Shown here piece after piece: positions 23,360 through 60,120 of a stretch of 64,000 nucleotides of DNA. A program made the position numbers and the translations under genes. Under the pieces are notes generated by a model. The model made no database searches. It was not told where the DNA came from and saw only the letters and a program-made list of their open reading frames with translations. Source of the stretch: an uncultured virus (IMG/VR IMGVR_UViG_3300021400_005597) (lineage: Duplodnaviria > Heunggongvirae > Uroviricota > Caudoviricetes). Each line of letters starts with the position of its first letter. Position 1 is the first letter of the stretch. Where the stretch lies: the IMG/VR virus record IMGVR_UViG_3300021400_005597, one strand, 5' to 3'.

Positions 23360-23441
23360 ATCTTTGTTCCTTTCTGGCATAGTGCCAATATAATACTGTA
23401 TTATATGTAAAAAAATAATCTTAAATTTTATAGGCAAAAAA

Positions 23442-23477: not shown

Positions 23478-26400
23478 TTAGATTTCTTCGATACATTCTT
23501 CTTCAGGTAAATCGGTTAAAACCTTTTTTTCCATATTCATATGCATCTCTTGTAAAAGTTTGTCAGTATCCATTTGCGAGTCATCTCGATTCTTTTTATA
23601 TCTTGATGTATCGCCCATTTTATTTATGGTTTGTATGGTGTCAGCTTCTTTACAGACGAAGAATCTCTGACTTTCAGGGGTAACAGATACATTTACTATT
23701 GTACTGCCACCATTTTCAATCTTCTCACAAAAATCATTAGCTAATCGTCTTTTAATTATTTGTCCGTTTTTATCCATTAACTGAACGGTTCTAAAAGCAT
23801 TATTTGATTTTGTGAACGATACCGGCTTTTTATCGCCAAACTTTTCAGATGGCATTGTGTAAACAAGGCATTTGATATTAAGTTGTGTATCTTTAAGGTC
23901 TGAGAATGATAAATCAAACTCATTTGTGGCATTTTTAAGTCTGTCTAAGTCTTCTTTATAATCAAAGACCGTATTAAGGTACTCGAGTTCTTTCTTACGG
24001 TTATAAAGTCTGTCCAAAGGTGATGCTTTGTAAAGAAGAAATTCGTCTAATGTCTTAACCTCAGGGTTTTTGAATGTTTCCATATCGGGCATTATTGCAT
24101 CTTCATTCTTTTTACCTTGTGGGCCTACTTCAATAAGCAACCTGAATTTCTCTGATGCATTATCAAAGTTTTTCTTTGCTTCATTATACTGAGCCAAGGC
24201 TTCCTGATAATTAAGGATTTCTTCATAGGCTTTACTACCATTAAATTCTTTTTCATATTTAGCCTTTAATTCATTGAGATTTTGTTCTGCTTCTTTTAAT
24301 GTAGTATTGTTTTTGCAGACATTTTGATATGCTGGAGCATATCTTTCAACCCATGTAACTAATCTCTTTCTGTCGTTTGCAACAAGTTCTGCTTCAAAAC
24401 GGTTTTGTACTTCACTCTTATACAACCATCTTTGCTTAAACATACCAAGTTCAGCGAACTTTGTAATGGCTGACAAAGTTGCATTAGGATTTCTATAAAT
24501 AAACTCCTGAATACTGTCTGTCGGAATATAATCAGCCTCGCCTAAACCTTTTATCATAGCAAGACCAAATCTTACACCTGTTTTGCCATTTACGGTTTCT
24601 GTACTGAAATAGTTCTTTGAATGTTTAAGGTCTGGTGGGAATACTTCTACATTTTTTTGTTGCATCTCTGTAAAGAAGTTAGTAAATTCATCAAGGCTCT
24701 TTGCTGCATTTAATGATGAACGGTAGAAATCTTCTTTATGATATTCCTTTAAGTAAGCGGTAAATAAGGCTATCTGAGCATAAGCAACAGCGTGGGATTT
24801 ATTGAAACCATATTTAGCAAATGGCATCATCTGTTCAAACAAATCTTCTGCCTGTTCTTTCGTAATACCCTGCTTTTTCATACAGCCTTCGATATTACGC
24901 TTTGGATCGCCATAAATGAACGCTTCTTTTTCGTGGGCAAGTTTATCAACTTTCTTTTTGCTCATATATCTACGCACAATATCAGCACCACCAAGAGAAT
25001 ATCCTGCCATATCACGGAAGATTTGCATAATCTGTTCCTGATAAATAGGACAGCCATATGTATTCTTAAGGATATTATTTAAGGCTTCGCAATCAAGTGT
25101 AATACTCTTTGGTGGGACATCTTTTACTGAGCCATCAGGATTGTAGAATGCTGAATTTTCTTTCTTTTCAAAAGGAACTTCAGTATTTTGGCTTAATGGG
25201 AAGATTTCCTTAATTTTTTCCTTATATTCATCTAGTGATAATACATTATGCCACTTTGTAGCAATTATTTCAGGAATATAATTAAGCGGTCCAGGTCTGT
25301 ATGCTGCATTTAAGAGTACAAGGTCGTCGAATTTATCCGGCTTAAATTTAATAAGCATATCTTTCATACCCGGAGACTCAAACTGAAATACGCCTTGTGT
25401 TAAGCCTTTATCAAAGATATTCTCAAAGATTTTACTATCTGATGCTATCTGGTCTCTTTTTGAATAATCCTGCAGGGAATAATCAATATTATTTTTATCA
25501 GACGGATCTTTTGTAATTTCTGTGATAATATCAAGGTTTTTAAGGCCTAAAAAGTCCATTTTAAGTAAGCCCTTGGCTTCTGCTTGTGCCATCTGGCATT
25601 GTGTAGAGTAATTATCCTTTGTAGCGTTATGGTATAAAGGAATAATATCTCTTATCGGATCCTTTGAAATGATAACACCAGCAGCGTGCTGTCCATATCC
25701 CATAAAGATGCCATCAACCTGAATAGCAAGTTTAAGAATTTGCTGGCTTAAAACATCGCTGTATTTTTCTCTTAACATATTAAAGATTTCATTACCGTTG
25801 ATGTTTCTTTCTTCACCATTTTCAGTTATCTTCTTTTTGGCAAAGTTCTGATAATCCTTGGATAATTCATCTGCTTTTGATAAGTATTTCTTTTTAGTGA
25901 TGTTTTCATATTCATTTTTATCAGATGTAGCTAAATTAGGATTTTTCTCCAGATATTCATATATATCCTTTGAAAGCAGATATCTTGCGGCAAGACGGAT
26001 ATTACCTGTACTCATTCTATTATCTTCTTCTGCATCCTTGTCTTCATCTGCTTTGGACTCGTTATAGAGCTTTGTAATAATACGGCATACTTTGTCTTCA
26101 CCATATTTATTTTGGGTATATTCGAATACTTTTTCACGGATATCTGTCTTAAAATCAGAATCAATATCTGGCATTGATACACGCTCTGTATTAAGGAAAC
26201 GCTCAAAAAGGAGTCCATGTTTAATTGGATCGATGTCAGTAATACCGAGTAAATAACAAGCAAGAGAACCTGCTGCTGAACCTCTGCCCGGTCCTATACC
26301 CATACCAATACGGCTATATCCGTTTTTATCGATGTATTCCTCTAATTCAGGGATAGATAATGGAGCATCTGCTATTGCTTTAGCATTAGGTAAATAGCCA

Positions 26401-27887: not shown

Positions 27888-28050
27888 AATATAAATACTC
27901 CTTTTATTTAATAATCGTATCTATATATGTAAAAAAACAAAAAATAAATAAGGCAACCATATTAGTTGCCTTAAAGATTATTTATATATTTTTTAATAGT
28001 TAGTGAATAAAAATCTAAATTAAGTGCTTTATCTTGAGCCAGAATTATTA

Positions 28051-31606: not shown

Positions 31607-31698
31607 ATTTCATAACCTCTTGGTATATATGTAAAATAAAAATACAAAAAAAAGACACAGCAAACAGCTGTATCTTTTCTTATGCTTATAAAAGGACT

Positions 31699-32436
31699 TT
31701 ATTCTAAATCATATTCGCTATTTTTGATATTCTCAATGTCCTGACGGATTTCCTGAATATTATTATCAAGCACTCTGATTTGTGTTTTATAATGGTCTTT
31801 TCTTATCATAGCACCCTCGAGACTGTCTTCAAGGGCTTCAATATCCTTTTCTGTATTGGCAGATTCAAATGACCTTGTGAGTTCTTTTAATGTACTGATA
31901 AGTTTAGGAATGGATTCGTGCGTGTATACCTCGTAAGGAATACCATATTTATGAAGCATATCCGTAATTTCCTTATCTTTTGCAATAGCTTCATCTAAGG
32001 TTTGAAGTCTGCCGGATTTCTGATAAGCGTGTGGATCTTTGTCCCTATCTATAACAAAATTAAAACTTGGATAGTTCCAAAACTGTCTGATAACACTATC
32101 TTCAAATTTCTGGTTTGGCTCTTTAAGGTAAATAGCAGAAAGCATAATAGGAGAATCTGTTACTACAACCTGCACCTGTCCCATAAGTCTTTCAACACGA
32201 TGCGTCTGCTCTGCAAATAAGACCTTTTGTCCATATAAGGAACCATTTAAGATAGATTCAGCATACTCAGATATCGACCTTCGTGGGCTATTTAAGTCAT
32301 ATACTAATTCTTTGGCATATTCTGATACATATTCGGCTAAAATACCTGCCTTTTTAAGTTCTGAACAAATTGTCCAAGCAGCAGTAGTTTTACCGGTTCC
32401 CGGGCCACCAAAAGCATTTACAACAATAGTTTTCAT
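31699..32436 (-). CDS. P-loop kinase/ATPase (NadR/AAA_28-like)
   Basis: GGPGTGKTT, EYAKE, VTDSP. Confidence 0.7.
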   Translation of the reverse strand: MKTIVVNAFGGPGTGKTTAAWTICSELKKAGILAEYVSEYAKELVYDLNSPRRSISEYAESILNGSLYGQKVLFAEQTHRVERLMGQVQVVVTDSPIMLSAIYLKEPNQKFEDSVIRQFWNYPSFNFVIDRDKDPHAYQKSGRLQTLDEAIAKDKEITDMLHKYGIPYEVYTHESIPKLISTLKELTRSFESANTEKDIEALEDSLEGAMIRKDHYKTQIRVLDNNIQEIRQDIENIKNSEYDLE

Positions 32437-32540
32437 ATCTTGCTCCTTTTTAATTTATTTAAGGATATATGTAAAAAATAATCTGTAAAATAAAAAAGCA
32501 CAGAAAATACTGTGCTTAATTATTGAAAGAAAGGACAAAA

Positions 32541-32909: not shown

Positions 32910-33515
32910 TTAATCTAGTAATTGTTCGAGCATTGATAATGCATCGAAATCATCGTCATTGTTACTTGTGTTATTATCTTCAAATGTAAGTGGTTTTTCA
33001 CTTTCAATAGGTAGTGGCTCATTAAAGACAGGTTTTGGCTTAACCGGTTCAGTCTGTATTGTGGACTTTATAGTATCTGCCTTTTCCTTAATTACTCTTA
33101 CCTGAGTCTTTATTTTTGCATTCCTTAATATTGGTATTACTCTTTTATCAAGGTCGAAAAACTCGGGTGAGCCTTTGAAGAAATATTTATAAAGATAAGC
33201 ACCCAGGAAATTTCTTATTGCGACCTTTACGAAATATCCTGCAGAAACATCAGATTTTAAGGAATTTAATAATTTTATTAAATCGGGATCTTTAGTTTCG
33301 CAAAATGCTAAGCGTATATCTTGTGGAGGGGTAATTTTGTATTTGCCCCTCTGTGATAAGATTTTCTTTAGGGCTTTATCATTATATTCAGACGGATCAG
33401 TAAGGGTTCTTAAACTCATTCGTATGATTTTACGAAAATTTCTTGTGCCTATATCATTTAAGAGCCCCAACAAATCAGCGTCTCTTTTGGATAAATGGAG
33501 TGTTATATATTTCAT
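32910..33515 (-). CDS. ParR-like adaptor with tandem RHH-like domains
   Basis: Overlaps parM stop; two beta-helix-helix-like units; acidic amphipathic C-terminal helix. Confidence 0.55.
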   Translation of the reverse strand: MKYITLHLSKRDADLLGLLNDIGTRNFRKIIRMSLRTLTDPSEYNDKALKKILSQRGKYKITPPQDIRLAFCETKDPDLIKLLNSLKSDVSAGYFVKVAIRNFLGAYLYKYFFKGSPEFFDLDKRVIPILRNAKIKTQVRVIKEKADTIKSTIQTEPVKPKPVFNEPLPIESEKPLTFEDNNTSNNDDDFDALSMLEQLLD

Positions 33516-34690
33516 GAATTCATTTCCTTCATTGTTTTGGCATAACGGAGCATATAATATCCGATTACATTACTGTATGCATAATTTAAGTCAGGAGTAT
33601 TATAGTTACCAGGTAATACTTTAAGGTTAGGAAGTCCAGAGAGCATTTCTTCAATCTGCTTATATCTGCTTTCACCTGTACCACCGGTTACAATAAGGTA
33701 TTTGTAATCTGTAAGGTTGGAGTATTCTTGCATAAGTCTTCTAATTGACTTTTCACAGAGTTTCTCATTTACTTTGTAAAGGATTTCTGAGAAATCAATT
33801 AAAGTGGTCTTGAATTCATCAGGATCGAAATATGGAGCTTCGCCTGTTTCAAGATACTTCTGCAACTCGAATACCTTTAATTCGATTGGATACTCGTTCT
33901 GGATTTCCTTGATTACTGACTCAAATACTGCTCTCATACCTGTATCTGAATATGTATTGTGGGAGTTCTTATAACCTGATTTGATAGCGAAGATGTCTTC
34001 TGTACCAAATCCACAGTCATAAATGATTGTTGATGATGTTAATACTGATTTACCAATATCTGATAAATCGCCATTATTATAAGCAATGGCACACAAAGTA
34101 CCTTGTGGCTGTTCCATTACATTGATATGGTCTTTATCAAGATTGAATTTGAATGTTGTCCAGTCTTTTGAACCAACTTTAATTGAAATATCGTAATCAT
34201 CGGATAAGGCTTCAATTAACTTCTGCTCGTCTCTTGCCTTATATGTTGCCGGAAGACCTGTCTGTAAAAAGATTTCATTGCCTTCTGATGTACCCCATAA
34301 ACCAAGAGCCATACCTGTTGCCATAATTACCTTAAATACATCTGAATTATAACGATAACGGGTATAGAGCGATGCGTCTGTTGTAGAATCGATATCTGAC
34401 TGGTCCATTAAAACCTCGGCTGACTCGCCTACAAGCCAGATTTCTCCGTTTTTGTTATTCCTAAACTGAATATCAGTATTCTTTACCTTGCCTACTACAT
34501 CAAGCACGGAAGGTGCCTTAATAGCAAAAGACGGGAATCTGAATATTCTTTTAGGTGATGCTCCCTTGACGCTTGAATAACCGCCATCAAGAGCAATAAT
34601 TGTCCTTGCCTTATACTGATTATTACCTAAAATCTTTGGCAAGGCTCTTTCTTTAATTTCTGATTTAGATTTAAAAATTGCTGTGTCCAT
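33512..34690 (-). CDS. ParM/StbA actin-like segregation ATPase
   Basis: ALDGGYSSVK, TGLP, EQPQG, YDCGFGT, VTGGTG. Confidence 0.88.
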   Translation of the reverse strand: MDTAIFKSKSEIKERALPKILGNNQYKARTIIALDGGYSSVKGASPKRIFRFPSFAIKAPSVLDVVGKVKNTDIQFRNNKNGEIWLVGESAEVLMDQSDIDSTTDASLYTRYRYNSDVFKVIMATGMALGLWGTSEGNEIFLQTGLPATYKARDEQKLIEALSDDYDISIKVGSKDWTTFKFNLDKDHINVMEQPQGTLCAIAYNNGDLSDIGKSVLTSSTIIYDCGFGTEDIFAIKSGYKNSHNTYSDTGMRAVFESVIKEIQNEYPIELKVFELQKYLETGEAPYFDPDEFKTTLIDFSEILYKVNEKLCEKSIRRLMQEYSNLTDYKYLIVTGGTGESRYKQIEEMLSGLPNLKVLPGNYNTPDLNYAYSNVIGYYMLRYAKTMKEMNS

Positions 34691-34798
34691 ATTTTTGTCC
34701 TTTCATAAAAATAATATGTTTTTGTTTACACTTACATATGTAAAATAAAAAATAAAAAAATTTAATCAAAAAAATAACACCCAGATGGGTGTTACTTT

Positions 34799-38454: not shown

Positions 38455-40944
38455 TTAAAATGCTGTTGCACTTGATTCATTTATATCAAAGTTCATAAAA
38501 TAACTTTCTGCTTTATTGAGTATTTCATCATTTGTTGTAGCACCAAAGAAGTTAGCCAGAGTTTCATTGGTAATTGGCAGAACTTCAGGAATTGCTGAAT
38601 TGATTTTGGCTCTCTTTGTAAGATTTGGTGTTGAAAGAGCCGGATAAATGGATGTATCAAACTTATAACATTCCGGTGCTCCACAAGACTCAGCATAGTC
38701 ATTTGTATATTTATAGTTAGGATGCTGCAGATAATCATATTTCTCAGCAAGAAGTGGTTGTTCACCGTAAATAAGGACTAATTCATCGTTGTAATCCATA
38801 CGGCCTAATTCTTCTGGTTTTAAGAGTTCTCTTGAGTCTATCTGATAACTTTGAGAACCGCCCTTTTTACCGTCAATAGACTGCGAATAGGTCTTAACAG
38901 TTGATGCACCAATCTTCTTTGAAATGTATTCATTATTGGTATTTTCATCACCACCAAGGAAAATAGTGAATGGTGAGTTTGCATCAATAACTTCATAGTC
39001 TTTTTCATACATACCTTTAAGCTGTGAGATTGTCTGGCAGATTGTGGTAGATGAAATCTCATATTTACGCATTGTTGAGAGTTTTTCCTTATATTCAGGG
39101 ATTTCACCAATATTAGGGAACTCATCAATAAGCATTCTTACATGGATTGGAAGTCTTGGATTGGAGCCTGTAACTACCTTTGCATTTTTAAGTTCGGAAA
39201 CAAACTTATCTGCTGCCTGTTTGGTAGGTCTTATTGTAATCAAACGGTTATCTTCATCATAGATTTCATACCAGTCATCATGAAGTGTTACAGGTGCATT
39301 TACGGTTGTAGTAAATAAACCAAGAATTTTCTTCTTTTGTTTAATCTTACCGTGGCCATTAGGTCTTTCTGTATTATGTACGATATGGCAATTTTTGATT
39401 TTTTTAACATCTTCATCTACAATGCCGGCATTTACCTCGCTCCTTGAATAGAACTTAACTAATTCATTATTGCCAGGTAATCTAAGCATCTTTGTTCCAT
39501 CCATCTGTCTTTCACCGAACTGATAAAGAATATCAAACAACTGTGTATAAACAAATGAAAGTAAGAAATTATATGTTTTGTCATTAGTTGCCATCTTAAG
39601 GAAAAGTGCAGTTTTCTGCTTTGCAAAGTCTTGTAAATCAAGAGTATCTGTAGATGTTAAATCACGCATCTGTCTGATATTGAATGGTCCAAGACGAACT
39701 GCTACTACCATTAAGACGGTTGTAGATGTCTTTTCAGGAGCAATACGGAAGTTTTCCCACTCACGAAGAGCATAAGGCTTTTCAATAAGGTCTGGTGTAT
39801 CTGAAAGTCCTTGTCTGTTTGCTTCATACTGACGCATATTCTCGAAAATAGCAGCAAGTTTAGATGCATTTGCTGTATTATTCTTACCATCGCCGAGTTT
39901 TACACCGTCCATAAGCTCGATACCGCAATCAGGTGTCCATTTAGAGTTTGCCAAACGGGTTAATTCACAAAGGTTAGCGAAACAAGGCTCATATAAAAGG
40001 CCACCGGTAACTTCAGGGATTTGTGCATAAGGTATGTTAGAACCGGTAGGGCAAGTAACTAAAAATGATACACAAGCACAAAGGAACTCATTCATTGAGT
40101 CGTCCCAGAACTGATCACCTTTTGATGCCCCAGTTTCTGCTGTATTTGTGATAAATGCCTTTACCAACTTTTTGATATCAGACTCTTGCTTGCAATATTT
40201 CATTGGGTTATAAGAGTCGCAATGAAGTTCTGCTTCTGCTTCTCCGTTATTTGCTGTTAGTGCAGATACATCAAGGATTTTAATACGGTATCCATTTCTT
40301 CTTAATGCTTCGCCACAACTTGCCAAAATCTCTCCAGATGGATCGGTGATAACATAAGAAGTATTCATCTGCAAAAGATTAGGCTTAAGCCAGAATCTTG
40401 TTTTTCCGGAGCCGGAAGCACCTAAAATCAAAGTGTTCATAGCTCTTTTATGTTTTCTGGTATCAAGTGATGCATAAAAATTCTTTGAAAAGATAACATT
40501 GTAGCCCTCTTTAACTGAATTTTTATTCTTTGCATCAGGGATATCTGCGAACTTTTGTGTTAATTCTTTTTCGTTATTCCATCTACTTGAACCTTTAAGT
40601 ACATCAAGGTCATTGTGGAGACGGATTCTGTCATAAAAGTAATATGCCAAAAATACAAGCCCAACTAATCCAGCCACGCCAAATGCTAATACTATCTGGT
40701 CAGGGTGAACATAATTTGATGGATTGAAACAGTCAAATGTATGCCCATTAAGATTGGCTGTTAACTGCTTAAATACTTCATCTAATCCTGCTTTTTTTCC
40801 ACATTGATCTTGTGCATAGAAAAACTCCAGAGCAGCAATCAAGGTTAATGGAACAAAAACAATAACCTGCATTATCGTAGTTTCCAAATATTCCTTTTTT
40901 AACTGTTCAGGAGACTTCTGTTTTCCTCTCTTATTTGCCTTCAT
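38455..40944 (-). CDS. virD4: VirD4/TraG type IV coupling protein
   Basis: Two N-terminal TMs, GASGSGKT, KPNLLQ, ITDPSGE, DEFPNIG, QTISQLK. Confidence 0.92.
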   Translation of the reverse strand: MKANKRGKQKSPEQLKKEYLETTIMQVIVFVPLTLIAALEFFYAQDQCGKKAGLDEVFKQLTANLNGHTFDCFNPSNYVHPDQIVLAFGVAGLVGLVFLAYYFYDRIRLHNDLDVLKGSSRWNNEKELTQKFADIPDAKNKNSVKEGYNVIFSKNFYASLDTRKHKRAMNTLILGASGSGKTRFWLKPNLLQMNTSYVITDPSGEILASCGEALRRNGYRIKILDVSALTANNGEAEAELHCDSYNPMKYCKQESDIKKLVKAFITNTAETGASKGDQFWDDSMNEFLCACVSFLVTCPTGSNIPYAQIPEVTGGLLYEPCFANLCELTRLANSKWTPDCGIELMDGVKLGDGKNNTANASKLAAIFENMRQYEANRQGLSDTPDLIEKPYALREWENFRIAPEKTSTTVLMVVAVRLGPFNIRQMRDLTSTDTLDLQDFAKQKTALFLKMATNDKTYNFLLSFVYTQLFDILYQFGERQMDGTKMLRLPGNNELVKFYSRSEVNAGIVDEDVKKIKNCHIVHNTERPNGHGKIKQKKKILGLFTTTVNAPVTLHDDWYEIYDEDNRLITIRPTKQAADKFVSELKNAKVVTGSNPRLPIHVRMLIDEFPNIGEIPEYKEKLSTMRKYEISSTTICQTISQLKGMYEKDYEVIDANSPFTIFLGGDENTNNEYISKKIGASTVKTYSQSIDGKKGGSQSYQIDSRELLKPEELGRMDYNDELVLIYGEQPLLAEKYDYLQHPNYKYTNDYAESCGAPECYKFDTSIYPALSTPNLTKRAKINSAIPEVLPITNETLANFFGATTNDEILNKAESYFMNFDINESSATAF

Positions 40945-43462: not shown

Positions 43463-44959
43463 TTATTCCTCGCTTTCTACTGAATCTTCATTGGTTTCAT
43501 CTGTTTCTGTACTTTGGGTAGCGTCTGTACCCTGCCCGTTATATACTTCAACATTGGTTAATACAATGTCATAGTCATCTGTTAAGCCACTAATGGTGAT
43601 TACGCCCTCAATACCTACGCCCTTAAATTCAGTTTCATATACCTTGTCGAACTTATTATAGGTAAGTTTATTGGTTGAGCCATTAGAGAACTTGATATAT
43701 GCAGCACCCGTGCTTTCAGGAGTTTCAATTACGATTTTGCAGTTTCTGTCTTCCGGGAACCATAAATCATATTTGATAATATTAGCCTTTGTGAGTGATG
43801 CAATCTCTTCTTCTTCAAAGATTTCAGGCTCATATACCTCATAATATTCATATGGATCTACGGGTTCTGTATAGTTTATACAACCAACAATATTGGTTTC
43901 CTGGAACTTATAGGCATCATCTGCGTTTAATAATTCTTCATCATCTGTATAAAGGCCACATACAATTCTTGAGTCATAGTATTTATCTTCAACTGTTGTT
44001 AAAAACTCATTATAATCGTCGATTGTGTAGTTTTCGCTGTCTAAATAAGGATATTCTTTTAATTCAGGGTAAACTAACTGTTCATTGTAATTAGTATTAT
44101 CTGAGTAAAAAACATCTTTGCAAAGACGGAACATGCCAAGATGGTTAATATTGTAATAACCTTCAACCAAATAATCAGGTACTGTAATCTGCCAGAAATG
44201 TTCTCTTAATGTAGAAAACTTGGTTGATTCGAATAATTCATAATCTTTGAATGCGTGGATATTGGCTTCGCCTGTAATATACTGATAATTAGTACCTGTA
44301 TAAATCTCAAAGTCATAGGTCTGCCCTTTTGTTGCACCAAGAATGATACCGTCTTTTACAGAGTTATCTCTGATATCAATTCCACCAACCTTATCAATAA
44401 GGACCTGTGATGCTTCTAATTTGGCAATTTCTGATAAAGAAGTATTAGGAAGAACTGATTCGATATCAGAATTAGCAAGGTCGATATAATACCTTCCGCC
44501 GGATGTACGCTGTAAATCACGAAGTCCGAATGTAATGCCGCAGTTATAATATCTTTCAAAGAAAATATTTTGCAGCATGTTTGTGGTTGAGTAATAGACG
44601 ATGGTATCTCCAGGGAAAAGAGTTGGGATATTCTGCTCTGATTCAAGAGTATAGAACATCATTTCGCCATTTCTTGTTCTGTAAGCGTCTTCTAAGTCAT
44701 AATCGTCATATACTTCATTAGTCATATCCTGAAATAATGGATAATATATACCGTTATGAACTACATAAAACTGCCCATCTGTGAGATATGTTTCATAATC
44801 AGGGGTACTTGAGTCCACTCCAAGCGTGGAAGTTTCATCAGTAACCAAGCCCTCAATGATTTCACCGCTATATACGATAGGTTCTGTACTAGAACACGCA
44901 GTTAATGGGGCAATTAAACAAGCTGAAAGCAATATTGGTAATAATTTGTGTTTTTTCAT
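43463..44959 (-). CDS. Acidic lipoprotein
   Basis: Lipobox LTAC. Confidence 0.7.
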   Translation of the reverse strand: MKKHKLLPILLSACLIAPLTACSSTEPIVYSGEIIEGLVTDETSTLGVDSSTPDYETYLTDGQFYVVHNGIYYPLFQDMTNEVYDDYDLEDAYRTRNGEMMFYTLESEQNIPTLFPGDTIVYYSTTNMLQNIFFERYYNCGITFGLRDLQRTSGGRYYIDLANSDIESVLPNTSLSEIAKLEASQVLIDKVGGIDIRDNSVKDGIILGATKGQTYDFEIYTGTNYQYITGEANIHAFKDYELFESTKFSTLREHFWQITVPDYLVEGYYNINHLGMFRLCKDVFYSDNTNYNEQLVYPELKEYPYLDSENYTIDDYNEFLTTVEDKYYDSRIVCGLYTDDEELLNADDAYKFQETNIVGCINYTEPVDPYEYYEVYEPEIFEEEEIASLTKANIIKYDLWFPEDRNCKIVIETPESTGAAYIKFSNGSTNKLTYNKFDKVYETEFKGVGIEGVITISGLTDDYDIVLTNVEVYNGQGTDATQSTETDETNEDSVESEE

Positions 44960-45099: not shown

Positions 45100-45738
45100 T
45101 TATTCATTATTTTTTTCGTGATAATAATATTTTCCGGGATTATTCCATCTTTCTTCTGCTTCTATGTCTTCTACCTGTAAATCAAGTTCATCTTTAAATT
45201 TAAGTCTATATATATCATTATGCATAAGTTTATCATCAATAGGTGTAAAAAACTTTTCAAATAAAGCTAGAAGCATTATGCGTTCTTTATATTTCCAGTA
45301 TTCATCGATTGTAAGAGTAGGAATATTTGGATCATAGTCGTCCATACTTTGAGAGAGTAAGAAATTAACTTCTTCTTCTCTTCTATCATCTATTATCTTT
45401 TCTATTTCTTTATAGCGTTTACTGTTTTGTTTTAATGTATCGCTGCTGTTGTTTCTTACATAGTCATACATCTTTTTGCTGCTTAAGAGCATCTGTTTTT
45501 GCTGTTTAGAAAAATATCTTGTTTTCTTTTTCCCCTTTTGTACAATAACACCCTTTTCCCATATGCCTAATTGTTTTAAGGCTCTTGATACCTGTTGTCT
45601 GTAATTTTTCCAATCTGTGCTCTGTTGGTCGATAATTTCTTTCTTGTTCTTAATTTTCTTTTCATGTGGAAGATTGTATTCGTTGATTATTTCATTTACT
45701 AAGTCTGCAACGCTGTATTTCTCTGACATATAAATCAT
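45100..45738 (-). CDS. Hypothetical protein divergent from the sigma-like gene (possible regulator)
   Basis: Basic N-terminal half; lacks the CATATA motif upstream. Confidence 0.55.
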   Translation of the reverse strand: MIYMSEKYSVADLVNEIINEYNLPHEKKIKNKKEIIDQQSTDWKNYRQQVSRALKQLGIWEKGVIVQKGKKKTRYFSKQQKQMLLSSKKMYDYVRNNSSDTLKQNSKRYKEIEKIIDDRREEEVNFLLSQSMDDYDPNIPTLTIDEYWKYKERIMLLALFEKFFTPIDDKLMHNDIYRLKFKDELDLQVEDIEAEERWNNPGKYYYHEKNNE

Positions 45739-46083: not shown

Positions 46084-46236
46084 AATGAGTAAAATATCCC
46101 CTTGGTTTTTAATATTCCGTGCTCTATTTTTAAAATTTTTTTTTACATATGTATGTAGCGATTTTTGGGGATAGGGGATTTTTTTACTCTAAATCGCTTG
46201 GTCATAGTTTAATTTTTTGTTTTTAGGAGGTTAAAA

Positions 46237-47052
46237 ATGATTAAAAACGATGAATCTTTAATTGATCGAATAACTTCGATCCCTGATGGTAATTCGATAC
46301 CTCAGGACATTTCCACAGAACTTCAAAACACAGCAGCTAAAGACTTATCTTGGGAATTATTTAGTGTTACACACGCTAAAGAGTCTCTTTTAGGTAATTT
46401 CGGCAACTCTGCTATCATTGCAAGAAAGCTTATGGAACCGTTAATTTTTAGTGCATCTAATAATGTGCTTAAAGGTGCTGTTATGACTATTCAGGAAAAG
46501 GAAGACTTATTAAGTAATGCTTTTATTGAGCTTTTGGACGCTTGTAAGTCTTACAATGAGATGAAAGGTAAGTTTCCTGTATATTCAAAGACTTTTATCG
46601 TTGGGGCAATTCGTAACACTTTTGAGACAAATATCTCTCATTATGACAGAAAGAAAATCATTGAGGATATTGTTACGGAAGAAATGAAGAAAGATCCTAC
46701 TCTTTCTTTAGAAGATGCTATCGAGAAAGCAAAACTCAGAACAGTAAGACCTGCTTCTATTGATGAAACCAATGAAGATGGTAAGTCATTAGGAGAAACC
46801 TTAGAGTCTGATTGTACTATTGAAGAAGAATATGACAAATTGGCCAGAGAAAGAAAAAGCGAAATTATGATTAAGTTCTTCAAACTTAATGCTAAAAATG
46901 GTCAGGTCAGCATTTTACAGTCATTCGGTCTTTGGAATGAAGTAGTAAGTCTTTTTAAGGATAATGACAGGTTGTTTGATGAATTTGCTAAAAAGGTTAA
47001 TGGTGCTTATAACAGACTTTATAGCGATGAATTAGAAGAAATGGAGATATAG
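46237..47052 (+). CDS. Sigma70-family RNA polymerase sigma factor-like protein, degenerate region 4
   Basis: Region 2 EKEDLLSNAFIELLDACKSYNEMKGKFPVYSKTFIVGAI; region 3.2 ASIDETNEDGKSLGETL; RBS AGGAGG. Confidence 0.75.
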   Translation: MIKNDESLIDRITSIPDGNSIPQDISTELQNTAAKDLSWELFSVTHAKESLLGNFGNSAIIARKLMEPLIFSASNNVLKGAVMTIQEKEDLLSNAFIELLDACKSYNEMKGKFPVYSKTFIVGAIRNTFETNISHYDRKKIIEDIVTEEMKKDPTLSLEDAIEKAKLRTVRPASIDETNEDGKSLGETLESDCTIEEEYDKLARERKSEIMIKFFKLNAKNGQVSILQSFGLWNEVVSLFKDNDRLFDEFAKKVNGAYNRLYSDELEEMEI

Positions 47053-47054
47053 TT

Positions 47055-48197
47055 ATGGATTATAATTATTTAACAAGAGAAGAACTGATTGAAGAAATTC
47101 AGAAATTCGAAGCAATGAGCGATAATGAGATAAAAGAATATAATAAGTTCCACAAACACTCTGCTGCTTCAAGAATGCAGGAAATTAAAGATGTTCTTGC
47201 TGAGAAACTTGATATTGATAAAGATGCTCAGTATCAGGCAAATGCTATCAATATTTGTAAGAATTTAGGCGTTAATTACAATATTAACAGAGATTATAGC
47301 CCTGAAAACAGAGACAAGGTAGATGATGAATATAAAGTAATTACTGTAGCCTTGGCAAAGGGAATACTTAAAAACTCATTTGAGCCTGAAAAAATACAAA
47401 AGAAACTCTATAAAAAGAATGTTATCTCTAGTGCTGATTTAACAGAAAGAGAGATAAATATTCGAATAGTAAGAACAATTATTTTGGACATTGTTCATTT
47501 AACACCTGAACAGTATCATAGCATCTACTCTACCAAAATCAACAAGAGTCTTCATGTATATGATTTTGTTCGCAAGATTGTAGATAGCTGTTCTACTGAA
47601 GAAAAGGACCTTTATGGCATTGATAATAAGGAAATCTTGTTCAACCTTGTATTCCCTGAATATATTGAAAAAACAAAGACTACAGGTGAATGTTTCCAGA
47701 ATTATATCTACGCCAAGGGTAGCCAGAAAGCAGCTTTAATTAAGGCCGGCAAGATTAAGGATACTAAATTAAATGCCAATAGACCTTATGACGAGTTTTG
47801 TATGGCTATTGATGATGTCCCAGTTTCAAAGCACGGTGTACTTGTTGATAAGAAGATTTGGGAAAGTATTGAACAAGCCTTTCAGGTAATGGGTACTACT
47901 GATAGAAAGAGAATGCTTTTGATGCTTGATGATTATAAGAGGTTCTTCGTAGATTTAAGGTATTCTGTACCGGGATTTACAGATATTATCAAGGCAAGAA
48001 GTATCTATACATCTCCTATGGACTTTTATTATAGCCAATTGTCCAAAGAAGACAGAATTGAATTATTCGATACTTATTATGAGCTCAAAAAGAAAGAAGG
48101 ACAAACAGTTGCCCTTGACCTTTTGAAAGAGTTCGTAGATGAAAACCATGACGAAATTGAAAAAATGGCGTATGATGAATTTGAACTTGATGAATAA
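47055..48197 (+). CDS. Hypothetical protein co-transcribed with the sigma-like gene
   Basis: Starts 2 nt after the sigma stop codon. Confidence 0.7.
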   Translation: MDYNYLTREELIEEIQKFEAMSDNEIKEYNKFHKHSAASRMQEIKDVLAEKLDIDKDAQYQANAINICKNLGVNYNINRDYSPENRDKVDDEYKVITVALAKGILKNSFEPEKIQKKLYKKNVISSADLTEREINIRIVRTIILDIVHLTPEQYHSIYSTKINKSLHVYDFVRKIVDSCSTEEKDLYGIDNKEILFNLVFPEYIEKTKTTGECFQNYIYAKGSQKAALIKAGKIKDTKLNANRPYDEFCMAIDDVPVSKHGVLVDKKIWESIEQAFQVMGTTDRKRMLLMLDDYKRFFVDLRYSVPGFTDIIKARSIYTSPMDFYYSQLSKEDRIELFDTYYELKKKEGQTVALDLLKEFVDENHDEIEKMAYDEFELDE

Positions 48198-55687: not shown

Positions 55688-56224
55688 TTATGAAAATACA
55701 AAATTTATAAGTGCTTTTTCTTCCGTGCTTAAATCAGTAAGACTGAGTTCGTCGGTAAGATTTCTGCCTGATATATTAAATTTGATGATAAGAGCATTTA
55801 CCCTCTCTCTTGGGTAGAGTTTTTTGAAGAATGGTGAGTAAAAGATTAAATCATCATAATAAACCGGGTATTCGGTCGGGTTTTTAAGAGTGAACTTATA
55901 TAATAAATCAACTCTGGCTTTGGTACTAAATGGCATACCATAATCATGCACATAAGAGATAAGCTGTAAGTTAGGTGTATGAGTAATATCAATGTTTTCC
56001 CATACGGTGTCTTTATCTGTACGCACAGAATCGGTATCTATATCTGCCGATGTTGACATTTTATTGATATTGTCTTTAATTATCTTAGAACGGTCTTTAT
56101 TCTCGTTGTAGGTCTGTATCTGTGCTTTAGTGCCATACCAATCATCTGCCTTTTCGTCATATTTAAGATCTGAAAGCATAGCGATAGATTTAAGTTCAAA
56201 TGGAACCTTAATGTGTTCTGCCAT
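55688..56224 (-). CDS. Hypothetical protein
   Basis: ATG 56224 after GGAG; motif 31 nt upstream. Confidence 0.6.
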   Translation of the reverse strand: MAEHIKVPFELKSIAMLSDLKYDEKADDWYGTKAQIQTYNENKDRSKIIKDNINKMSTSADIDTDSVRTDKDTVWENIDITHTPNLQLISYVHDYGMPFSTKARVDLLYKFTLKNPTEYPVYYDDLIFYSPFFKKLYPRERVNALIIKFNISGRNLTDELSLTDLSTEEKALINFVFS

Positions 56225-56326
56225 ATGTTCATCTCCAATCTTCAAAGTTATGTATATATGTAAAATAAAATTTTGAAATTTATGATGGATAAAATAAGAT
56301 TGGTCGAATAATGAGTATTGATAGAT

Positions 56327-56446: not shown

Positions 56447-56492
56447 TATTTTTTACATATATATAAAAGTATTTATGAAAGGAATGAATATT

Positions 56493-57605
56493 ATGAATAA
56501 CAGAACTGTATTATCAATCAGCAAAATACACACATTTGCACAGTTAAGTTCATCTGATAAGCATAATACCAGACAAGAACTTACAGCAGAGAATATAGAT
56601 ACTACAAAGATTTATAATAATAAAATTTTAGTATCAACAGACGGATTGTCTTTTAGTGAGAAATGGAAAGAAAAGTTTAATCAAAAAGAAATTGAAATCG
56701 GACATCCTATTAAAAATAGAAAGAACGCTGTTTTGGCTCTTGAAATTATTACAGGTTTTTCGCATGAAATGTCTGATAAAATTGACCTTGATGAATGGGG
56801 CAAAAAGAATGTTGAATGGATAAAAGAACAATTCGGTGAAGATAATATTGTTTCTTCTATTATGCATCTTGATGAATCGTCTCCTCACATCCATACTATC
56901 GTAATACCTTTCAAAGATGATAGGTTGAATGCCAAAGCATATACGGGTGGAAAAGTTGCTATGTATAATCTTCAGACATCTTATGCAAATAAAATGGCTG
57001 ATTTTGGTTTGGTCCGTGGCAGAAAGAAAAGCAAGGCAAAAAGAAAGATGCTAGACAGGTTCTATTCTTCTGTTGATGAAATAGAAAAAATGGGGCCACC
57101 GGCTATCGGAGCATCTGAAAGTATTGACCAATATGTAAAAAGAATTGAAGAAAGTAATAAGACTTATGCTTTAGCTGCACTTAACCTTAAACAGCAGCTT
57201 GTTAATGAAAAATTAGACAGAGATGAAATTATTATGGCTCAAATGTCAAAATATGAAGATGCTATCAATCTTTACGAAGAACTTGTGGACAGATATGATG
57301 GTGATATCTGCAAAGCTAAGCAAAGGGTTAATCAGTATAGAAAAATAGAAATGGCTGTTCCTAAACCGGCATTGCAGAAATTGTTGGACGGAATGCTGCA
57401 GAAGTTTGATTTATTCCAGAGCCTTGAGTTTAAGAGACTTAATGATAAGAAAAAGAAACGCCTTATGCGTGATCCTTACAAAGAAGATATACCTGAAACT
57501 ATCGGTGAAATACCTGCAAGTTTCGGTGAAAACAACATATTAGATGATACAGATGATATTGCAAGTTCAGACGATACCGCATCTGCTTTATATAATATTA
57601 AATAA
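56493..57605 (+). CDS. MobV/Pre-family relaxase (plasmid recombination enzyme)
   Basis: HNTR, RKNAVLALE, HLDESSPHIH, LQTSY, GLVRG; likely start 56493 after AAAGGA. Confidence 0.88.
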   Translation: MNNRTVLSISKIHTFAQLSSSDKHNTRQELTAENIDTTKIYNNKILVSTDGLSFSEKWKEKFNQKEIEIGHPIKNRKNAVLALEIITGFSHEMSDKIDLDEWGKKNVEWIKEQFGEDNIVSSIMHLDESSPHIHTIVIPFKDDRLNAKAYTGGKVAMYNLQTSYANKMADFGLVRGRKKSKAKRKMLDRFYSSVDEIEKMGPPAIGASESIDQYVKRIEESNKTYALAALNLKQQLVNEKLDRDEIIMAQMSKYEDAINLYEELVDRYDGDICKAKQRVNQYRKIEMAVPKPALQKLLDGMLQKFDLFQSLEFKRLNDKKKKRLMRDPYKEDIPETIGEIPASFGENNILDDTDDIASSDDTASALYNIK

Positions 57606-58786: not shown

Positions 58787-58837
58787 TATTTTGTACTGCC
58801 CTTTATGTAATATACTATATATGTAAAAAAATTTTTT

Positions 58838-60010
58838 TTATTGTTCAATATTGTCTAAAAAATCAGAAAAAACATCATTTAATTCATTTTTTTGTTCATC
58901 ATCTAGCATATTTTCATCATTTTCGCTATCAAAAAGGTCATTTAATACATTTTCTGTATCAAAATCCTGGGTATTTTCTTCGGTTTGTTTGGTCTGTGCT
59001 GTAGGCTCTGTTTCTATGTTGGTTTCGGTAGTATTATCTATTGTTATAGTAGAATCGTTAATACCGTAGTATTTAGCCATATAATCTTCAAATGAAATTG
59101 CATTTTGCTCTAATTTTTCCGGTAAAACGATGTCTTTATTAAAACATTTAACAGTTAATGTGAACTTCTTTGTATCTTGTGTTGCATTAAGACCTACCAT
59201 ATCAATATCGTATGGGAAAAACAGTTCAGATATTAAATATGGAGTATTGCTCTGTGAAAAATCAAGTTCTATATCATTTGTATAAATTCCAAAGTCTGCT
59301 ATAAAGAAAGTGGCTGTACAAGTAATATCAGAACCAAAGGTTGCAAGTGTTTTAATGAGTTCTAGTGTGTAATTATCGCCATTTTCAAGTAATTTAGTGT
59401 TGTCATTTAAGAAAGCGGTGATATGTGGATCGGACATATTAAAAGTACATGTTGCTCTGTTTACCTTTGCATCTAACATATCTTCTTCTTTGACTCTTAC
59501 TACTGTATTTTGAACAATAAGCTCTTTCAGACTATCATAATTGATTTCTTCATCTGTTATATTTTCCGGTTCAGGGGTTTCAATATAAAACCACACATCG
59601 TTATCAAAATCATATTCATAAGATACGCTCTTATCATCTTTCTTTACAAGGTAAGACTCCATCTTATCAAGTGAACTTGTATCATCTATAGTATCAGGGG
59701 TTTTTATTTCTGAATAGGCTGCTGCACAAGTGTATGCAATATCATCGGTCTTTGTAAAGATGCCATCTGCACTAATGTTAAGGTCTATATCATAAGTATT
59801 ATTATCTTGTGGAATACCTATAGTATCTTCCCAACCAAAAATAAATTGGACACTATTGCCAAAATCTGTGTTTTGAAGGTAGAAATCTAAATCTTCCATT
59901 GTTATATGCTGCTCTTTTGGAATAGAACAAAGTATAATATATGACACAATAATAATTATACATGCGATGATAATTCCTTTATATTTTGATATAAATTCTC
60001 TGCCGTTCAT
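58838..60010 (-). CDS. Membrane-anchored acidic extracellular protein
   Basis: N-terminal TM; start moved to ATG 60010 after AAAGGA. Confidence 0.6.
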   Translation of the reverse strand: MNGREFISKYKGIIIACIIIIVSYIILCSIPKEQHITMEDLDFYLQNTDFGNSVQFIFGWEDTIGIPQDNNTYDIDLNISADGIFTKTDDIAYTCAAAYSEIKTPDTIDDTSSLDKMESYLVKKDDKSVSYEYDFDNDVWFYIETPEPENITDEEINYDSLKELIVQNTVVRVKEEDMLDAKVNRATCTFNMSDPHITAFLNDNTKLLENGDNYTLELIKTLATFGSDITCTATFFIADFGIYTNDIELDFSQSNTPYLISELFFPYDIDMVGLNATQDTKKFTLTVKCFNKDIVLPEKLEQNAISFEDYMAKYYGINDSTITIDNTTETNIETEPTAQTKQTEENTQDFDTENVLNDLFDSENDENMLDDEQKNELNDVFSDFLDNIEQ

Positions 60011-60120
60011 ATTAAGTCCTTTCGGGGTATGTATTATTTCCTTTAATATATGTAAAATTAAAAAAATAAAAAATAAACGCAAAAATATAGAGGGTTATTA
60101 GCCCTCTATACTTTTTAAGA

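What the first reader, a model, noticed from the sequence alone, without database searches (positions are those of the whole stretch)
46141..47052. Element-encoded sigma factor with degenerate region 4 and an autoregulatory copy of the motif
Seen: region 2 (EDLLSNAFIELLDACKSYNEMKGKFPVYSKTFIVGAI, compare EDLxQEGxIGLxKAxxxFDxxKGxFxTYAxxxIxGAI) and a region 3.2-like SIDE...GKSLGETL. After a region 4.1-like ILQSFGL there is no recognisable TLxEIA...SRERVRQ helix before AYNRL. The gene's own upstream has TTTTACATATG (46141) and a second TTACATATA (45974). Established: T4 gp55 is a sigma lacking region 4 that recognises -10-only promoters with a co-activator. Inference: this is an analogous -10-only sigma with positive feedback, possibly acting as an on/off switch for the whole element.
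Basis: partly seen in the sequence, partly recalled or inferred. Interest (0 to 1): 0.85.

Follow-up and report, generated by a model that had tools for sequence, protein, structure and literature searches.

The report
Plasmid's private sigma factor and promoter
A large DNA-transfer plasmid from an uncultured animal-gut bacterium encodes a very divergent RNA polymerase sigma factor, and one invariant 11-base promoter box sits in front of nearly all its genes, including the sigma gene itself, so the plasmid may run its own transcription programme.

Summary
ORF 46237-47052 (271 aa) is a highly divergent sigma-70-family protein. Residues 30-133 model as a sigma-2 domain (sigma70 Z 9.5). Sigma70_r2 is below Pfam's cut-off in this protein but passes it in 4 of 7 distant relatives. 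No region 3 or region 4 model matches any of the 8 family members. The C-terminal 75 residues are acidic, and their link to a sigma-4 HTH is weak.

The motif is real and larger than reported. TTTTACATATA has 13 exact intergenic copies against 0.06 expected. Nineteen TTACATAT sites all point at the downstream gene, mostly 20-90 nt before the start codon and upstream of the ribosome-binding site. They have T-tracts but no -35 hexamer, so the box sits like a -10 element. One copy lies 86 nt before the sigma gene. Two related metagenome loci (30-37% identical sigma) keep the motif.

Best reading (about 0.5): a private sigma that reads -10-type promoters across a Firmicute-type conjugative plasmid, with positive feedback. 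The link between sigma and motif is circumstantial. The T4 gp55 analogy is functional only. I class it as a new variant of a known kind, closest in concept to SigN of pBS32.

The parts
46237..47052 (+). Gene for a 271-aa divergent sigma-70-family protein (P0001)
   Evidence: ORF; Sigma70_r2 and TIGR02937 below cut-off; only 7 relatives among 1.84 billion representatives; Foldseek top 50 all sigma factors, best E 0.012
46324..46635 (+). Sigma-2 domain (regions 1.2-2.4), residues 30-133
   Evidence: VIA-align: sigma70 6ca0_F Z 9.5 rmsd 2.5 over 89 residues; sigmaS 9.3; SigB 9.2; WhiG 8.9; gp55 8.8; sigmaE 8.2. This is the best conserved block in the family
46744..46809 (+). Acidic, low-confidence linker, residues 170-191 (possible region 3.2 finger)
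   Evidence: pLDDT below 50 in the AF2 model. The assignment as 3.2 is inference only
46819..47037 (+). C-terminal three-helix domain, residues 195-267: degenerate or replaced region 4
   Evidence: No r4 profile hit. Isolated model has pLDDT 76.8 and finds no sigma-4 in the top 50 and nothing by Foldseek below E 3. It aligns weakly with the HTH of 3mzy_A and P0006. Net charge is -4
46141..46151 (+). Motif copy TTTTACATATG, 86 nt upstream of the sigma start codon (candidate autoregulatory promoter)
   Evidence: conserved with its flanks in L008
45974..45982 (+). Second TTACATATA, 255 nt upstream, without the conserved T-run; doubtful as a promoter
46167..46177 (+). GGGGATAGGGG box in the predicted 5' leader of the sigma gene, conserved in L008 (GGGGGTAGGGG)
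46087..46189 (.). Inverted repeat (arms 46087-46101 and 46175-46189) enclosing the sigma promoter box
   Evidence: I21. The fold has z -3.9 with 0 of 200 shuffles as good. Analogous repeats with other sequences occur in L008 and L009
47055..48197 (+). 380-aa gene of unknown family, 2 nt after the sigma stop; conserved partner gene
   Evidence: 35% identical to the gene after the sigma homologue in L009 and also present in L008. No family found. Relatives P0011-P0013
44990..45000 (-). Motif TTTTACATATA upstream of the divergent 498-aa lipoprotein gene (43463..44959)
   Evidence: the same arrangement is seen in L008 and L009
41001..41011 (-). Motif upstream of the T4SS coupling protein gene (38455..40944)
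34735..34745 (-). Motif upstream of the actin-like (ParM-type) partition gene (33512..34690)
32466..32476 (-). Motif upstream of the AAA_28 gene (31699..32436)
31626..31636 (-). Motif 21 nt upstream of the RecD-like helicase start; the RBS lies between them
27924..27934 (-). Motif upstream of the DnaE-type DNA polymerase III alpha gene (23478..27887)
23402..23412 (-). Motif upstream of an RBS and ATG inside the longest-ORF call 22532..23452
22505..22515 (-). Motif variant ATTTACATATA upstream of 21352..22479
17977..17987 (-). Motif 291 nt upstream of the T2SSE-type ATPase gene (16395..17687)
16356..16366 (-). Motif 210 nt upstream of 15806..16147
14065..14075 (-). Motif upstream of the VirB4-like ATPase gene (11602..14019)
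9011..9021 (-). Motif upstream of 8219..8938
4213..4223 (-). Motif (TTTTACATATT) upstream of 3848..4165
2901..2911 (-). Motif upstream of 2474..2851
56255..56265 (-). Motif upstream of 55688..56245
56451..56461 (+). Motif upstream of the Mob_Pre relaxase gene (56475..57605)
58818..58828 (-). Motif upstream of a short unlisted ORF
60047..60057 (-). Motif upstream of an RBS and ATG inside the longest-ORF call 58838..60082

Best explanation
The 271-aa protein is a very divergent sigma-70-family factor encoded by a large Firmicute-type conjugative plasmid of an uncultured animal-gut bacterium. Its sigma-2 domain would dock on the host core RNA polymerase and read the element's shared 11-bp box TTTTACATATA as a -10-type (extended -10) promoter element. 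Transcription would start a few bases downstream of the box. Its C-terminal domain is a decayed sigma-4 that no longer reads DNA, which fits the absence of a -35 hexamer; T-tracts take that place. The box heads most operons seen in the window: T4SS, coupling protein, relaxase, Pol III alpha, helicase, partition and a lipoprotein. It also heads the sigma gene's own two-gene operon, which would give positive feedback. Shown here: the sigma-2 fold and sequence, the lack of a recognisable region 4, the enrichment, orientation and position of the motif, and its conservation in two related loci. Inferred: RNAP binding, that this protein rather than another factor reads the box, the transcription start, and autoregulation.
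For: Sigma identity. Sigma70_r2 E 6.9e-4, TIGR02937 1.7e-5 and phrog_1740 sigma 0.0026, all below the cut-offs. 4 of 7 relatives pass Pfam's r2 cut-off and 6 of 7 hit it at E<=10. The family profile hits sigma-H 3mzy_A at E 0.0077. hhalign to ECF sigmas covers region 2 at 85%. Foldseek's top 50 are all sigma factors. VIA gives sigma-2 at Z 9.5 to 8.0 for 26 chains. Promoter. TTACATAT occurs 28 times against 7.4 expected. The exact 11-mer occurs 13 times in intergenic DNA against 0.064, and 13 of the 15 exact copies lie in the 9% of the window that is intergenic. All 19 of 19 gene-proximal sites are co-oriented with the downstream gene. TTTACATAT is invariant at all 19, with T-tracts at -15..-13 and -8..-1 and no conserved hexamer elsewhere. 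The RBS and start codon lie 11-90 nt downstream at 17 of 19 sites; at 31627 the RBS starts 7 nt after the box, which rules out a -35 reading. Link to sigma. It is the only sigma-2-bearing ORF among 52 ORFs scanned. The box precedes its gene. In L008 (37% identical sigma) and L009 (30%), 4 of 4 TTTACATAT sites are gene-oriented promoter-position copies. These include the sigma gene of L008 and the divergent lipoprotein gene in both loci. Region 2 is the most conserved block of the family, matching the unchanged box. Degenerate region 4. The isolated C-terminal model finds no sigma-4. Net charge is -4, -4 and -2 in the three closest members. The residues conserved there are almost all hydrophobic.
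Against: No experiment and no transcription start data exist. RNA contigs of a same-sample metatranscriptome cover only small pieces at depth about 3 and cannot show starts. Co-occurrence rests on three related elements only, and the box does not co-vary with the protein, so any other conserved factor would fit as well. Only 64 kb of an element of up to about 171 kb was seen. In L009 the sigma gene is preceded by a variant, TTCCATAT x2, not the canonical box. 3 of the 19 sites contain a perfect TATAAT within the box (TTACATATAAT), so some recognition by a host housekeeping sigma is not excluded. The window protein itself is below every curated sigma cut-off, and the full model has only pLDDT 66.6. 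The Z values are in the range the tool warns can arise for helical folds.
Confidence: 0.5

Rival explanations
1. The box is read by a host sigma factor. This could be the housekeeping sigma using TATAxx inside the box as a -10 element, or a host alternative sigma with a CATA-type -10 (the sporulation sigmaE/sigmaK consensus, recalled from memory). The plasmid's sigma-like protein would then control something else.
For: 3 of the 19 sites contain a perfect TATAAT. A/T-rich upstream tracts are common at Firmicute promoters (recalled). Nothing ties the protein to the box physically.
Against: TTTACATAT is invariant at 19 of 19 sites, including a C that no housekeeping consensus needs. The usual sixth-position T is absent at most sites. 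There is no -35 hexamer and no TG. The generic sigma-70 scan finds no excess of promoters near the sigma gene: 17 found against 16.0 expected. Replication and partition genes depending on a sporulation sigma would be odd (inference).
Confidence: 0.15
2. Another element-encoded factor reads the box. Candidates are an RNA polymerase or activator encoded in the unseen part of the element, or the 425-aa protein with two sigma-4-type HTH motifs (9071..10348).
For: Up to about 107 kb of the element lies outside the window. ORF 9071..10348 has strong sigma-4/HTH hits (Sigma70_r4 4.5e-7, HTH_23 8.2e-9). Such invariant promoter boxes are typical of phage-type polymerases (recalled).
Against: No ORF in the window has polymerase-like family hits. 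None of the 14 ORFs checked has a DxDGD-type motif; this was a crude check with a motif recalled from memory. The box sits where a -10 element sits, not where an upstream activator site would. L008 and L009 carry the sigma and the box together.
Confidence: 0.15
3. The box is mainly an operator for a plasmid-wide repressor, in the manner of global plasmid regulons such as KorA/KorB or ArtA, that overlaps ordinary promoters.
For: Shared boxes in front of many plasmid operons are a known pattern. ArtA of pSK41 is described as a global regulator of plasmid genes (PMC2777438, abstract seen in the listing). 4 of the 19 sites extend into a palindrome such as ACATATGT or ACATATATATGT.
Against: The box is asymmetric and strictly gene-oriented at 19 of 19 sites. 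It keeps promoter-like spacing to the RBS, and no second conserved promoter element accompanies it.
Confidence: 0.1
4. The protein is a decayed or non-initiating sigma relative, for example a decoy that competes for core RNAP, and not a working specificity factor.
For: It is below the curated sigma cut-offs and has no recognisable regions 3 and 4. SigN of pBS32 is reported to be toxic when expressed at high levels (PMC10601692, abstract seen in the listing).
Against: The gene is intact and conserved, with region 2 best preserved, across 30-37% identical homologues. It keeps a conserved downstream partner gene. A roughly 94% identical copy of the region sits in an independent bovine gut metagenome.
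Confidence: 0.08

Closest known systems
SigN (ZpdN) of Bacillus subtilis plasmid pBS32
   Same: A plasmid-encoded sigma only weakly similar to known sigmas. It drives a regulon located on the plasmid, including replication-type genes, and activates its own gene from a SigN-dependent promoter, giving positive feedback (PMC6751061, abstract and passages read).
   Different: SigN promoters have -35 and -10 regions (same paper); here there is no -35 element. SigN is held off by a LexA-repressed SigA promoter; no such trigger was found here. There is no detectable sequence relation: tblastn of this protein against 72,556 plasmid records found nothing. I did not check whether pBS32 is among those records.
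Bacteriophage T4 gp55 with gp33 (split late sigma)
   Same: gp55 docks on the beta' coiled-coil like sigma domain 2 and reads a -10-only late promoter. gp33 occupies the beta flap as a sigma-4 mimic that reads no -35 element, and fused gp55-gp33 proteins work (PMC2988020, passages; PMC7892883, abstract). The present protein looks like such a fusion: sigma-2 plus a non-basic C-terminal domain. gp55 (7d7c_F) matches the model at Z 8.8.
   Different: There is no specific relationship: gp55 ties with many sigma-2 domains. This protein keeps a C-terminal domain that aligns weakly with sigma-4. No gp33-like or clamp-dependent activator was found. The box differs from the T4 late box (recalled). The element is a conjugative plasmid, not a lytic phage.
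ECF (group 4) and group 3 alternative sigma factors
   Same: The best profile hits are TIGR02937 sigma70-ECF, FliA/WhiG, SigI and SigB/F/G. Bacillaceae ECF sigma genes share the SYDETKGKF block at 31-35% identity over residues 86-177. ECF sigmas are described as often autoregulatory (PMC6751061, passage).
   Different: ECF sigmas have a canonical sigma-4 and bipartite promoters. Here r4 is undetectable and hhalign aligns region 2 only. The protein also has a 30-residue N-terminal extension and an extra helical segment at 135-169.
TcdR/BotR/TetR/UviA (group 5) clostridial sigma factors
   Same: They are sigmas of low-GC Firmicutes, some of them encoded on mobile elements. Their -35 consensus, recalled from memory as TTTACA, is contained in the box.
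   Different: Here TTTACA cannot be a -35 element, because the RBS follows within 7-25 nt at several sites. Those sigmas have a functional region 4. No family hit to them was returned.

Membership tests
Sigma-70 family | Sigma-2 domain (regions 1.2-2.4) by sequence | tested here: met
   Below cut-off in the window protein (Sigma70_r2 19.8 bits against 24; TIGR02937 24.5 against 42.9). Relatives found by phmmer pass the cut-off in 4 of 7 cases: 26.1, 26.8, 32.8 and 25.6 bits. hhalign to ECF sigmas gives 85% over region 2.
Sigma-70 family | Sigma-2 fold | tested here: met
   Model residues 30-133 against sigma70 6ca0_F: Z 9.5, rmsd 2.5, 89 aligned. 26 chains score Z>=8 and all 26 are sigma-2 domains. 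Foldseek's top 50 are all sigma factors at weak E values of 0.012 or more. The model's pLDDT is only 66.6.
Sigma-70 family | Sigma-4 domain (HTH that reads the -35 element and binds the beta flap) | tested here: inconclusive
   No Sigma70_r4 or r4_2 hit at E<=10 in any of 8 members. The isolated C-terminal model finds no sigma-4 chain in VIA-wide's top 50 and nothing by Foldseek below E 3. However, HMMER aligns residues up to 254 with the HTH of sigma-H 3mzy_A (E 0.0077) and with the HTH-like C-terminus of P0006.
Sigma-70 family | Binds core RNA polymerase (beta' clamp helices) and confers promoter-specific initiation | not testable with these tools
   Needs biochemistry. No complex with a host beta' fragment was modelled.
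T4 gp55-type late sigma | Small sigma-2-only protein with no sigma-4-equivalent domain, whose partner gp33 occupies the flap | tested here: not met
   The protein has 271 aa with a folded 75-residue C-terminal domain. gp55 7d7c_F is one of many tied sigma-2 matches (Z 8.8).
T4 gp55-type late sigma | Promoter made of a -10-type box only | tested here: met
   The alignment of 19 sites shows information only in TTTTACATATA and adjacent T-tracts, and the RBS lies downstream of the box.
T4 gp55-type late sigma | Dependence on a co-activator and the sliding clamp | not tested
   No clamp or gp33-like gene was recognised in the window. The conserved 380-aa neighbour has no known family.
SigN-like plasmid sigma with a plasmid regulon | Plasmid-borne sigma, regulon on the same plasmid, own gene behind a cognate promoter | tested here: inconclusive
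   At sequence level this is met: the box heads at least 19 genes or operons, including its own. That the box is cognate to this protein is inferred.
SigN-like plasmid sigma with a plasmid regulon | Bipartite -35/-10 promoter | tested here: not met
   No conserved -35 hexamer in the 19-site alignment.
Group 5 (TcdR-type) sigma | TTTACA used as a -35 element read by region 4 (consensus recalled from memory) | tested here: not met
   The RBS and start codon follow the box too closely for a -35 reading, for example 21 nt to the ATG at 31627. No r4 was detected.

The most novel reading that the evidence does not exclude
A roughly 170-kb conjugative plasmid of gut Firmicutes runs an orthogonal transcription system. 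Nearly every operon, including replication, partition, DNA transfer and surface proteins, would be read only by a private sigma. In this sigma, sigma-4 has decayed into a domain that reads no DNA, making it a natural single-chain counterpart of the T4 gp55-gp33 split sigma. It would recognise an 11-bp extended -10 box and sustain itself by positive feedback. The sigma promoter, enclosed in a structurally conserved inverted repeat, could act as the ignition point after transfer into a new cell.
Probability: 0.3. Interest if true: 0.8.

Novelty: new variant of a known kind. Interest (0 to 1): 0.62.

Why it matters
Gram-positive conjugation is described as controlled by repressors, quorum peptides and antitermination acting on host-type promoters. 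A term search of the 2019 review PMC6540685 found 'sigma factor' only twice, and neither case is element-encoded. A plasmid that puts transfer, replication and partition behind one private sigma would be insulated from host promoter rules. That could help explain host range and silencing escape of large gut plasmids. It would also add a cellular-plasmid example of -35-independent sigma function, known so far from phage T4. The box and sigma pair would be a compact orthogonal expression part for Firmicutes. The protein family has 7 members at E <= 0.001 among 1.84 billion representative proteins and no match in 72,556 plasmid records, so it is essentially undescribed.

Tried and rejected
- **Complex of sigma with the 380-aa neighbour:** no verdict (runs 0.64, 0.14, 0.15; the mark is 0.32). 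This is not evidence either way.
- **Own genome:** none is held for this window, so the box could not be counted outside the element.
- **More relatives.** The word-index search found only the protein itself. tblastn against plasmids found nothing for P0001, P0008 or P0006, and blastn of 44000-49000 against plasmids found nothing. Five viral-contig scans found no relative. Genome contigs returned only ordinary Bacillaceae ECF sigma genes. Contigs of P0004, P0006-P0009 and P0013 could not be fetched, so co-occurrence rests on L008 and L009 alone.
- **Partner protein:** no Pfam, NCBIfam or usable PHROG hit, and nothing from the protein atlas.
- **Rfam over the whole window:** no family.
- **PDB by sequence with the single protein:** nothing relevant.
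- **Reading TTTACA as a -35 element:** rejected on geometry.
- **RNA evidence:** contigs of a same-sample metatranscriptome (X6) lie on a few short pieces at depth about 3, including one depth bin at 46005-46671. A second RNA run (X13) has next to nothing. Contigs cannot show starts, and DNA carry-over is not excluded.
- **Element-encoded polymerase:** a crude regex for a DxDGD-type motif (recalled) in 14 ORFs found none.
- **Argument errors:** searches failed on their arguments and were repeated in corrected form.
Full report
**What is at the coordinates**

The finding spans the upstream region and body of one ORF, 46237..47052 on the + strand, 271 aa. A 380-aa ORF follows 2 nt after the stop (47055..48197). 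Upstream there is a 498-bp gap to a divergent 212-aa ORF (45100..45738).

**Context**

The window is 64 kb at about 33% G+C, with almost all genes on the - strand. Pfam identifies these genes:
- a VirB4-like ATPase, a PrgI-family protein and a T2SSE-type ATPase
- two T4SS coupling proteins and a Mob_Pre relaxase
- a DnaE-type Pol III alpha and a RecD-like helicase
- an actin-like partition protein, a type IA topoisomerase, ClpP and a GGDEF protein
- a surface protein with Listeria-Bacteroides repeats

The VirB4 is 33-36% identical to the 'CD1110 family' ATPases of Clostridium, Paenibacillus and Ruminococcus plasmids. The protein index records this ORF on a contig of 171,595 bp, and no whole genome is held. 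The element is therefore a large Firmicute-type conjugative plasmid, or a similar element, known only from metagenomes. Its DNA is complete in one animal-gut run that may be its source. A roughly 94% identical relative covers 41334-50543 in an independent bovine-gut run.

**Is it a sigma factor?**

By sequence the window protein sits just under every curated threshold:

| Library | Model | E-value | Bits vs cut-off |
|---|---|---|---|
| Pfam | Sigma70_r2, residues 86-129 | 6.9e-4 | 19.8 vs 24 |
| NCBIfam | TIGR02937 | 1.7e-5 | 24.5 vs 42.9 |
| PHROGs | phrog_1740 sigma | 0.0026 | none given |

FliA/WhiG, SigI and SigB/F/G models give weaker NCBIfam hits.

The family is tiny.
- phmmer over 1.84 billion representatives found 7 proteins at E<=0.001, and a profile search added two more.
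- Of the 7 relatives scanned, 4 pass Pfam's r2 cut-off, 2 hit below it and 1 has no hit.
- The family profile finds sigma-H 3mzy_A (E 0.0077) and FliA.
- hhalign against Bacillaceae ECF sigmas, which share the SYDETKGKF block, aligns region 2 at 85% probability.

The AF2 model built on 8 sequences has pLDDT 66.6.
- Foldseek's top 50 PDB chains are all sigma factors, at weak E values of 0.012 or more.
- VIA-align places residues 30-133 on sigma-2 domains: sigma70 Z 9.5 (rmsd 2.5, 89 residues), sigmaS 9.3, SigB 9.2, WhiG 8.9, T4 gp55 8.8, sigma32 8.5 and sigmaE 8.2.

The sigma-2 assignment is therefore sound. gp55 is not a privileged match.

**Region 4**

- No region 3 or region 4 model hits any of the 8 members at E<=10.
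- The segment 170-191 is acidic and modelled with pLDDT below 50, as a linker would be.
- Residues 195-267 form three helices in the model.
- Modelled alone (pLDDT 76.8), this domain finds no sigma-4 chain among VIA-wide's top 50. The best hit is Z 7.2, to an adenovirus protein.
- Foldseek finds nothing below E 3; an ECF sigma appears only at rank 17 with E 7.7.
- HMMER's alignments to 3mzy_A and to relative P0006 run through the C-terminus. They pair GLWNEVVSLFKDNDRLFDEF with the HTH of those proteins.
- The domain has net charge -4, -4 and -2 in the three closest members.
- The residues invariant there are almost all hydrophobic.

I read this as a sigma-4 that has decayed as a DNA reader but is kept, perhaps for the beta flap. 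That last point is inference.

**The motif**

- TTACATAT occurs 28 times against 7.4+-2.7 expected, and none of 100 shuffles reached 28.
- Nineteen of the 28 lie just upstream of a gene and are co-oriented with it. Two of these fall inside the 5' end of a longest-ORF call but are followed by an RBS and an ATG.
- Of the other 9, seven are inside coding sequence without the T-run, one is the opposite-strand reading of a palindromic site, and one is the 45974 copy.
- The exact 11-mer TTTTACATATA has 13 intergenic copies against 0.064 in shuffled intergenic DNA. My shuffle is an approximate dinucleotide shuffle.
- 13 of the 15 exact copies lie in the 9% of the window that is intergenic.
- In the 19-site alignment TTTACATAT is invariant and the next base is A in 16. 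T-tracts sit at -8..-1 and -15..-13, and nothing else is conserved.
- At 17 of the 19 sites an RBS and start codon follow within 11-90 nt. At 31627 the RBS begins 7 nt after the box, and at 22506 it begins 14 nt after.

The box must therefore act as a -10-type element, not a -35 element. One- and two-mismatch variants (TTTAACATATA, TTTATCATATA, TTTCACATATA) sit upstream of further genes. The box heads transfer, replication, partition and surface genes alike.

**The sigma gene's own promoter**

TTTTACATATG lies at 46141-46151, 86 nt before the ATG. The 45974 copy has AA where all 19 sites have TT, so I doubt that it works.

**Related loci**

Two metagenome loci carry homologues of the sigma: L008 at 37% identity and L009 at 30%.
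- Both keep the downstream partner gene; the L009 partner is 35% identical to the window's.
- Both keep the divergent lipoprotein gene; the L009 lipoprotein is 55% identical to the window's.
- All 4 of 4 TTTACATAT sites in these loci are gene-oriented and 35-90 nt before a start codon.
- In L008 one such site sits before the sigma gene, with flanks that align to the window (TTTTTAAAA..TTTTTTTACATAT and TTGGGGnTAGGGG).
- In L009 the sigma gene is preceded by two copies of a variant, TTCCATAT, in 27-nt direct repeats.

The box thus travels with this gene family. It is unchanged while the proteins diverge to 30% identity, and their region 2 stays the best conserved block.

**Mechanism and rivals**

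The most economical reading is that the protein binds host core RNAP through sigma-2. It would read the box as an extended -10 element and need no -35 contact. It would transcribe most of the element and its own operon. I give this about 0.5. The rivals are:
- recognition by a host sigma; 3 of the 19 sites contain TATAAT
- another factor from the unseen part of the element, or the HTH protein at 9071..10348
- a global operator
- a non-initiating sigma relative

No polymerase-like ORF was seen in the window. The generic sigma-70 scan shows no excess of promoters around the gene.

**Comparison with known systems**

- **SigN of pBS32** is the closest concept. It is a plasmid sigma with a plasmid regulon and positive feedback, but it uses -35/-10 promoters and a LexA-gated trigger (PMC6751061; abstract and passages read).
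- **T4 gp55/gp33** is the closest mechanism. gp55 acts as sigma-2 on a -10-only promoter, gp33 is a sigma-4 mimic on the flap, and fused gp55-gp33 is functional (PMC2988020, passages; PMC7892883, abstract).
- **Review of Gram-positive conjugation control.** A term search of PMC6540685 found no element-encoded sigma.
- **Other literature searches.** 'Plasmid-encoded sigma factor' with 'conjugative' returned 1 paper, which is not on such a system by its title and abstract in the listing; I did not open it. A four-term search on sigma factors and plasmid transfer genes gave 20 papers, of which 15 were listed. By their titles and abstracts none describes such a system in Firmicutes; I did not open them except PMC6540685.
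- **Earlier notes of this scan.** Unchecked AI notes describe plasmid-private sigma factors with shared promoters in Microbacterium and Acaryochloris plasmids. The theme may be recurrent; I tested none of those claims.

**Verdict**

This is a new variant of a known kind: a plasmid-private sigma that is -35-independent. The key link between the sigma and the box is still untested.

Noticed in passing
window 9071-10348 (-): A 425-aa protein with two sigma-4/LuxR-type HTH motifs (residues about 205-247 and 277-321; Sigma70_r4 4.5e-7, HTH_23 8.2e-9, TIGR02937 positions 121-155) but no sigma-2. It could be an ordinary regulator, or a trans-acting DNA reader for the region-4-poor sigma.
   Followed up: partly
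window 46087-46189; L008 373-438; L009 3649-3736: In all three loci the box in front of the sigma gene lies between the arms of an inverted repeat. The arm sequences differ: ATCCCC/GGGGAT, ACCCCC/GGGGGT and AGAGCG/CGCTCT. Folds give z -3.9 (window), -3.85 (L009) and -0.85 (L008). This could be a regulator site pair, a cruciform, or a hairpin formed in transferred single-stranded DNA.
   Followed up: partly
window 46167-46177; L008 432-442: A GGGGATAGGGG / GGGGGTAGGGG box is conserved in the predicted 5' leader of the sigma gene. The window leader also folds into a hairpin (AGCGATTT...AAATCGCT; z -3.4).
   Followed up: partly
window 45100-45738 (-): A 212-aa ORF of unknown family lies between the lipoprotein gene and the sigma gene. 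It is absent from L008 and L009. It is preceded by a sigma-70-like TTGAAA-17-TAAAAT (45805-45777) rather than the box, so it may be host-transcribed. Direct repeats AATTGTGTAGATA / AATTATGTAGATA sit 21 bp apart at 45817-45850.
   Followed up: no
window 4178-4188 and 8983-8993 (-): A second, variant box (TTTCACATATA) lies downstream of the main box at two promoters. The copy at 4178 sits directly against the RBS, which would leave almost no leader.
   Followed up: no
L009 3568-3594 and 3664-3690: The sigma homologue of L009 is preceded by two 27-nt direct repeats, 96 nt apart, each holding the variant TTCCATAT instead of TTACATAT.
   Followed up: partly
window 23478-27887, 29714-31606, 33512-34690, 52106-54178, 18297-18938, 54193-55701: The element carries its own DnaE-type Pol III alpha, RecD-like helicase, actin-like partition ATPase, type IA topoisomerase, ClpP and a GGDEF protein, plus two T4SS coupling proteins (18923-20179 and 38455-40944). 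This is an unusually self-sufficient plasmid backbone.
   Followed up: no
window 41334-50543: An independent bovine-gut metagenome run (X3) holds a contig about 94% identical across this stretch (577 differences and 29 gaps over 9.2 kb). The element family is therefore present in more than one study.
   Followed up: partly
protein P0005 (67 aa): A 67-aa database protein is 55% identical to residues 211-254 only. It may be a truncated gene call, or a free-standing version of the C-terminal domain.
   Followed up: no
window 2902, 14066, 34732-34743, 46143: At 4 of the 19 sites the box extends into a palindrome (ACATATATATGT, TTACATATGTAA or ACATATGT). The copy at 34732-34743 reads as the box on both strands.
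   Followed up: no
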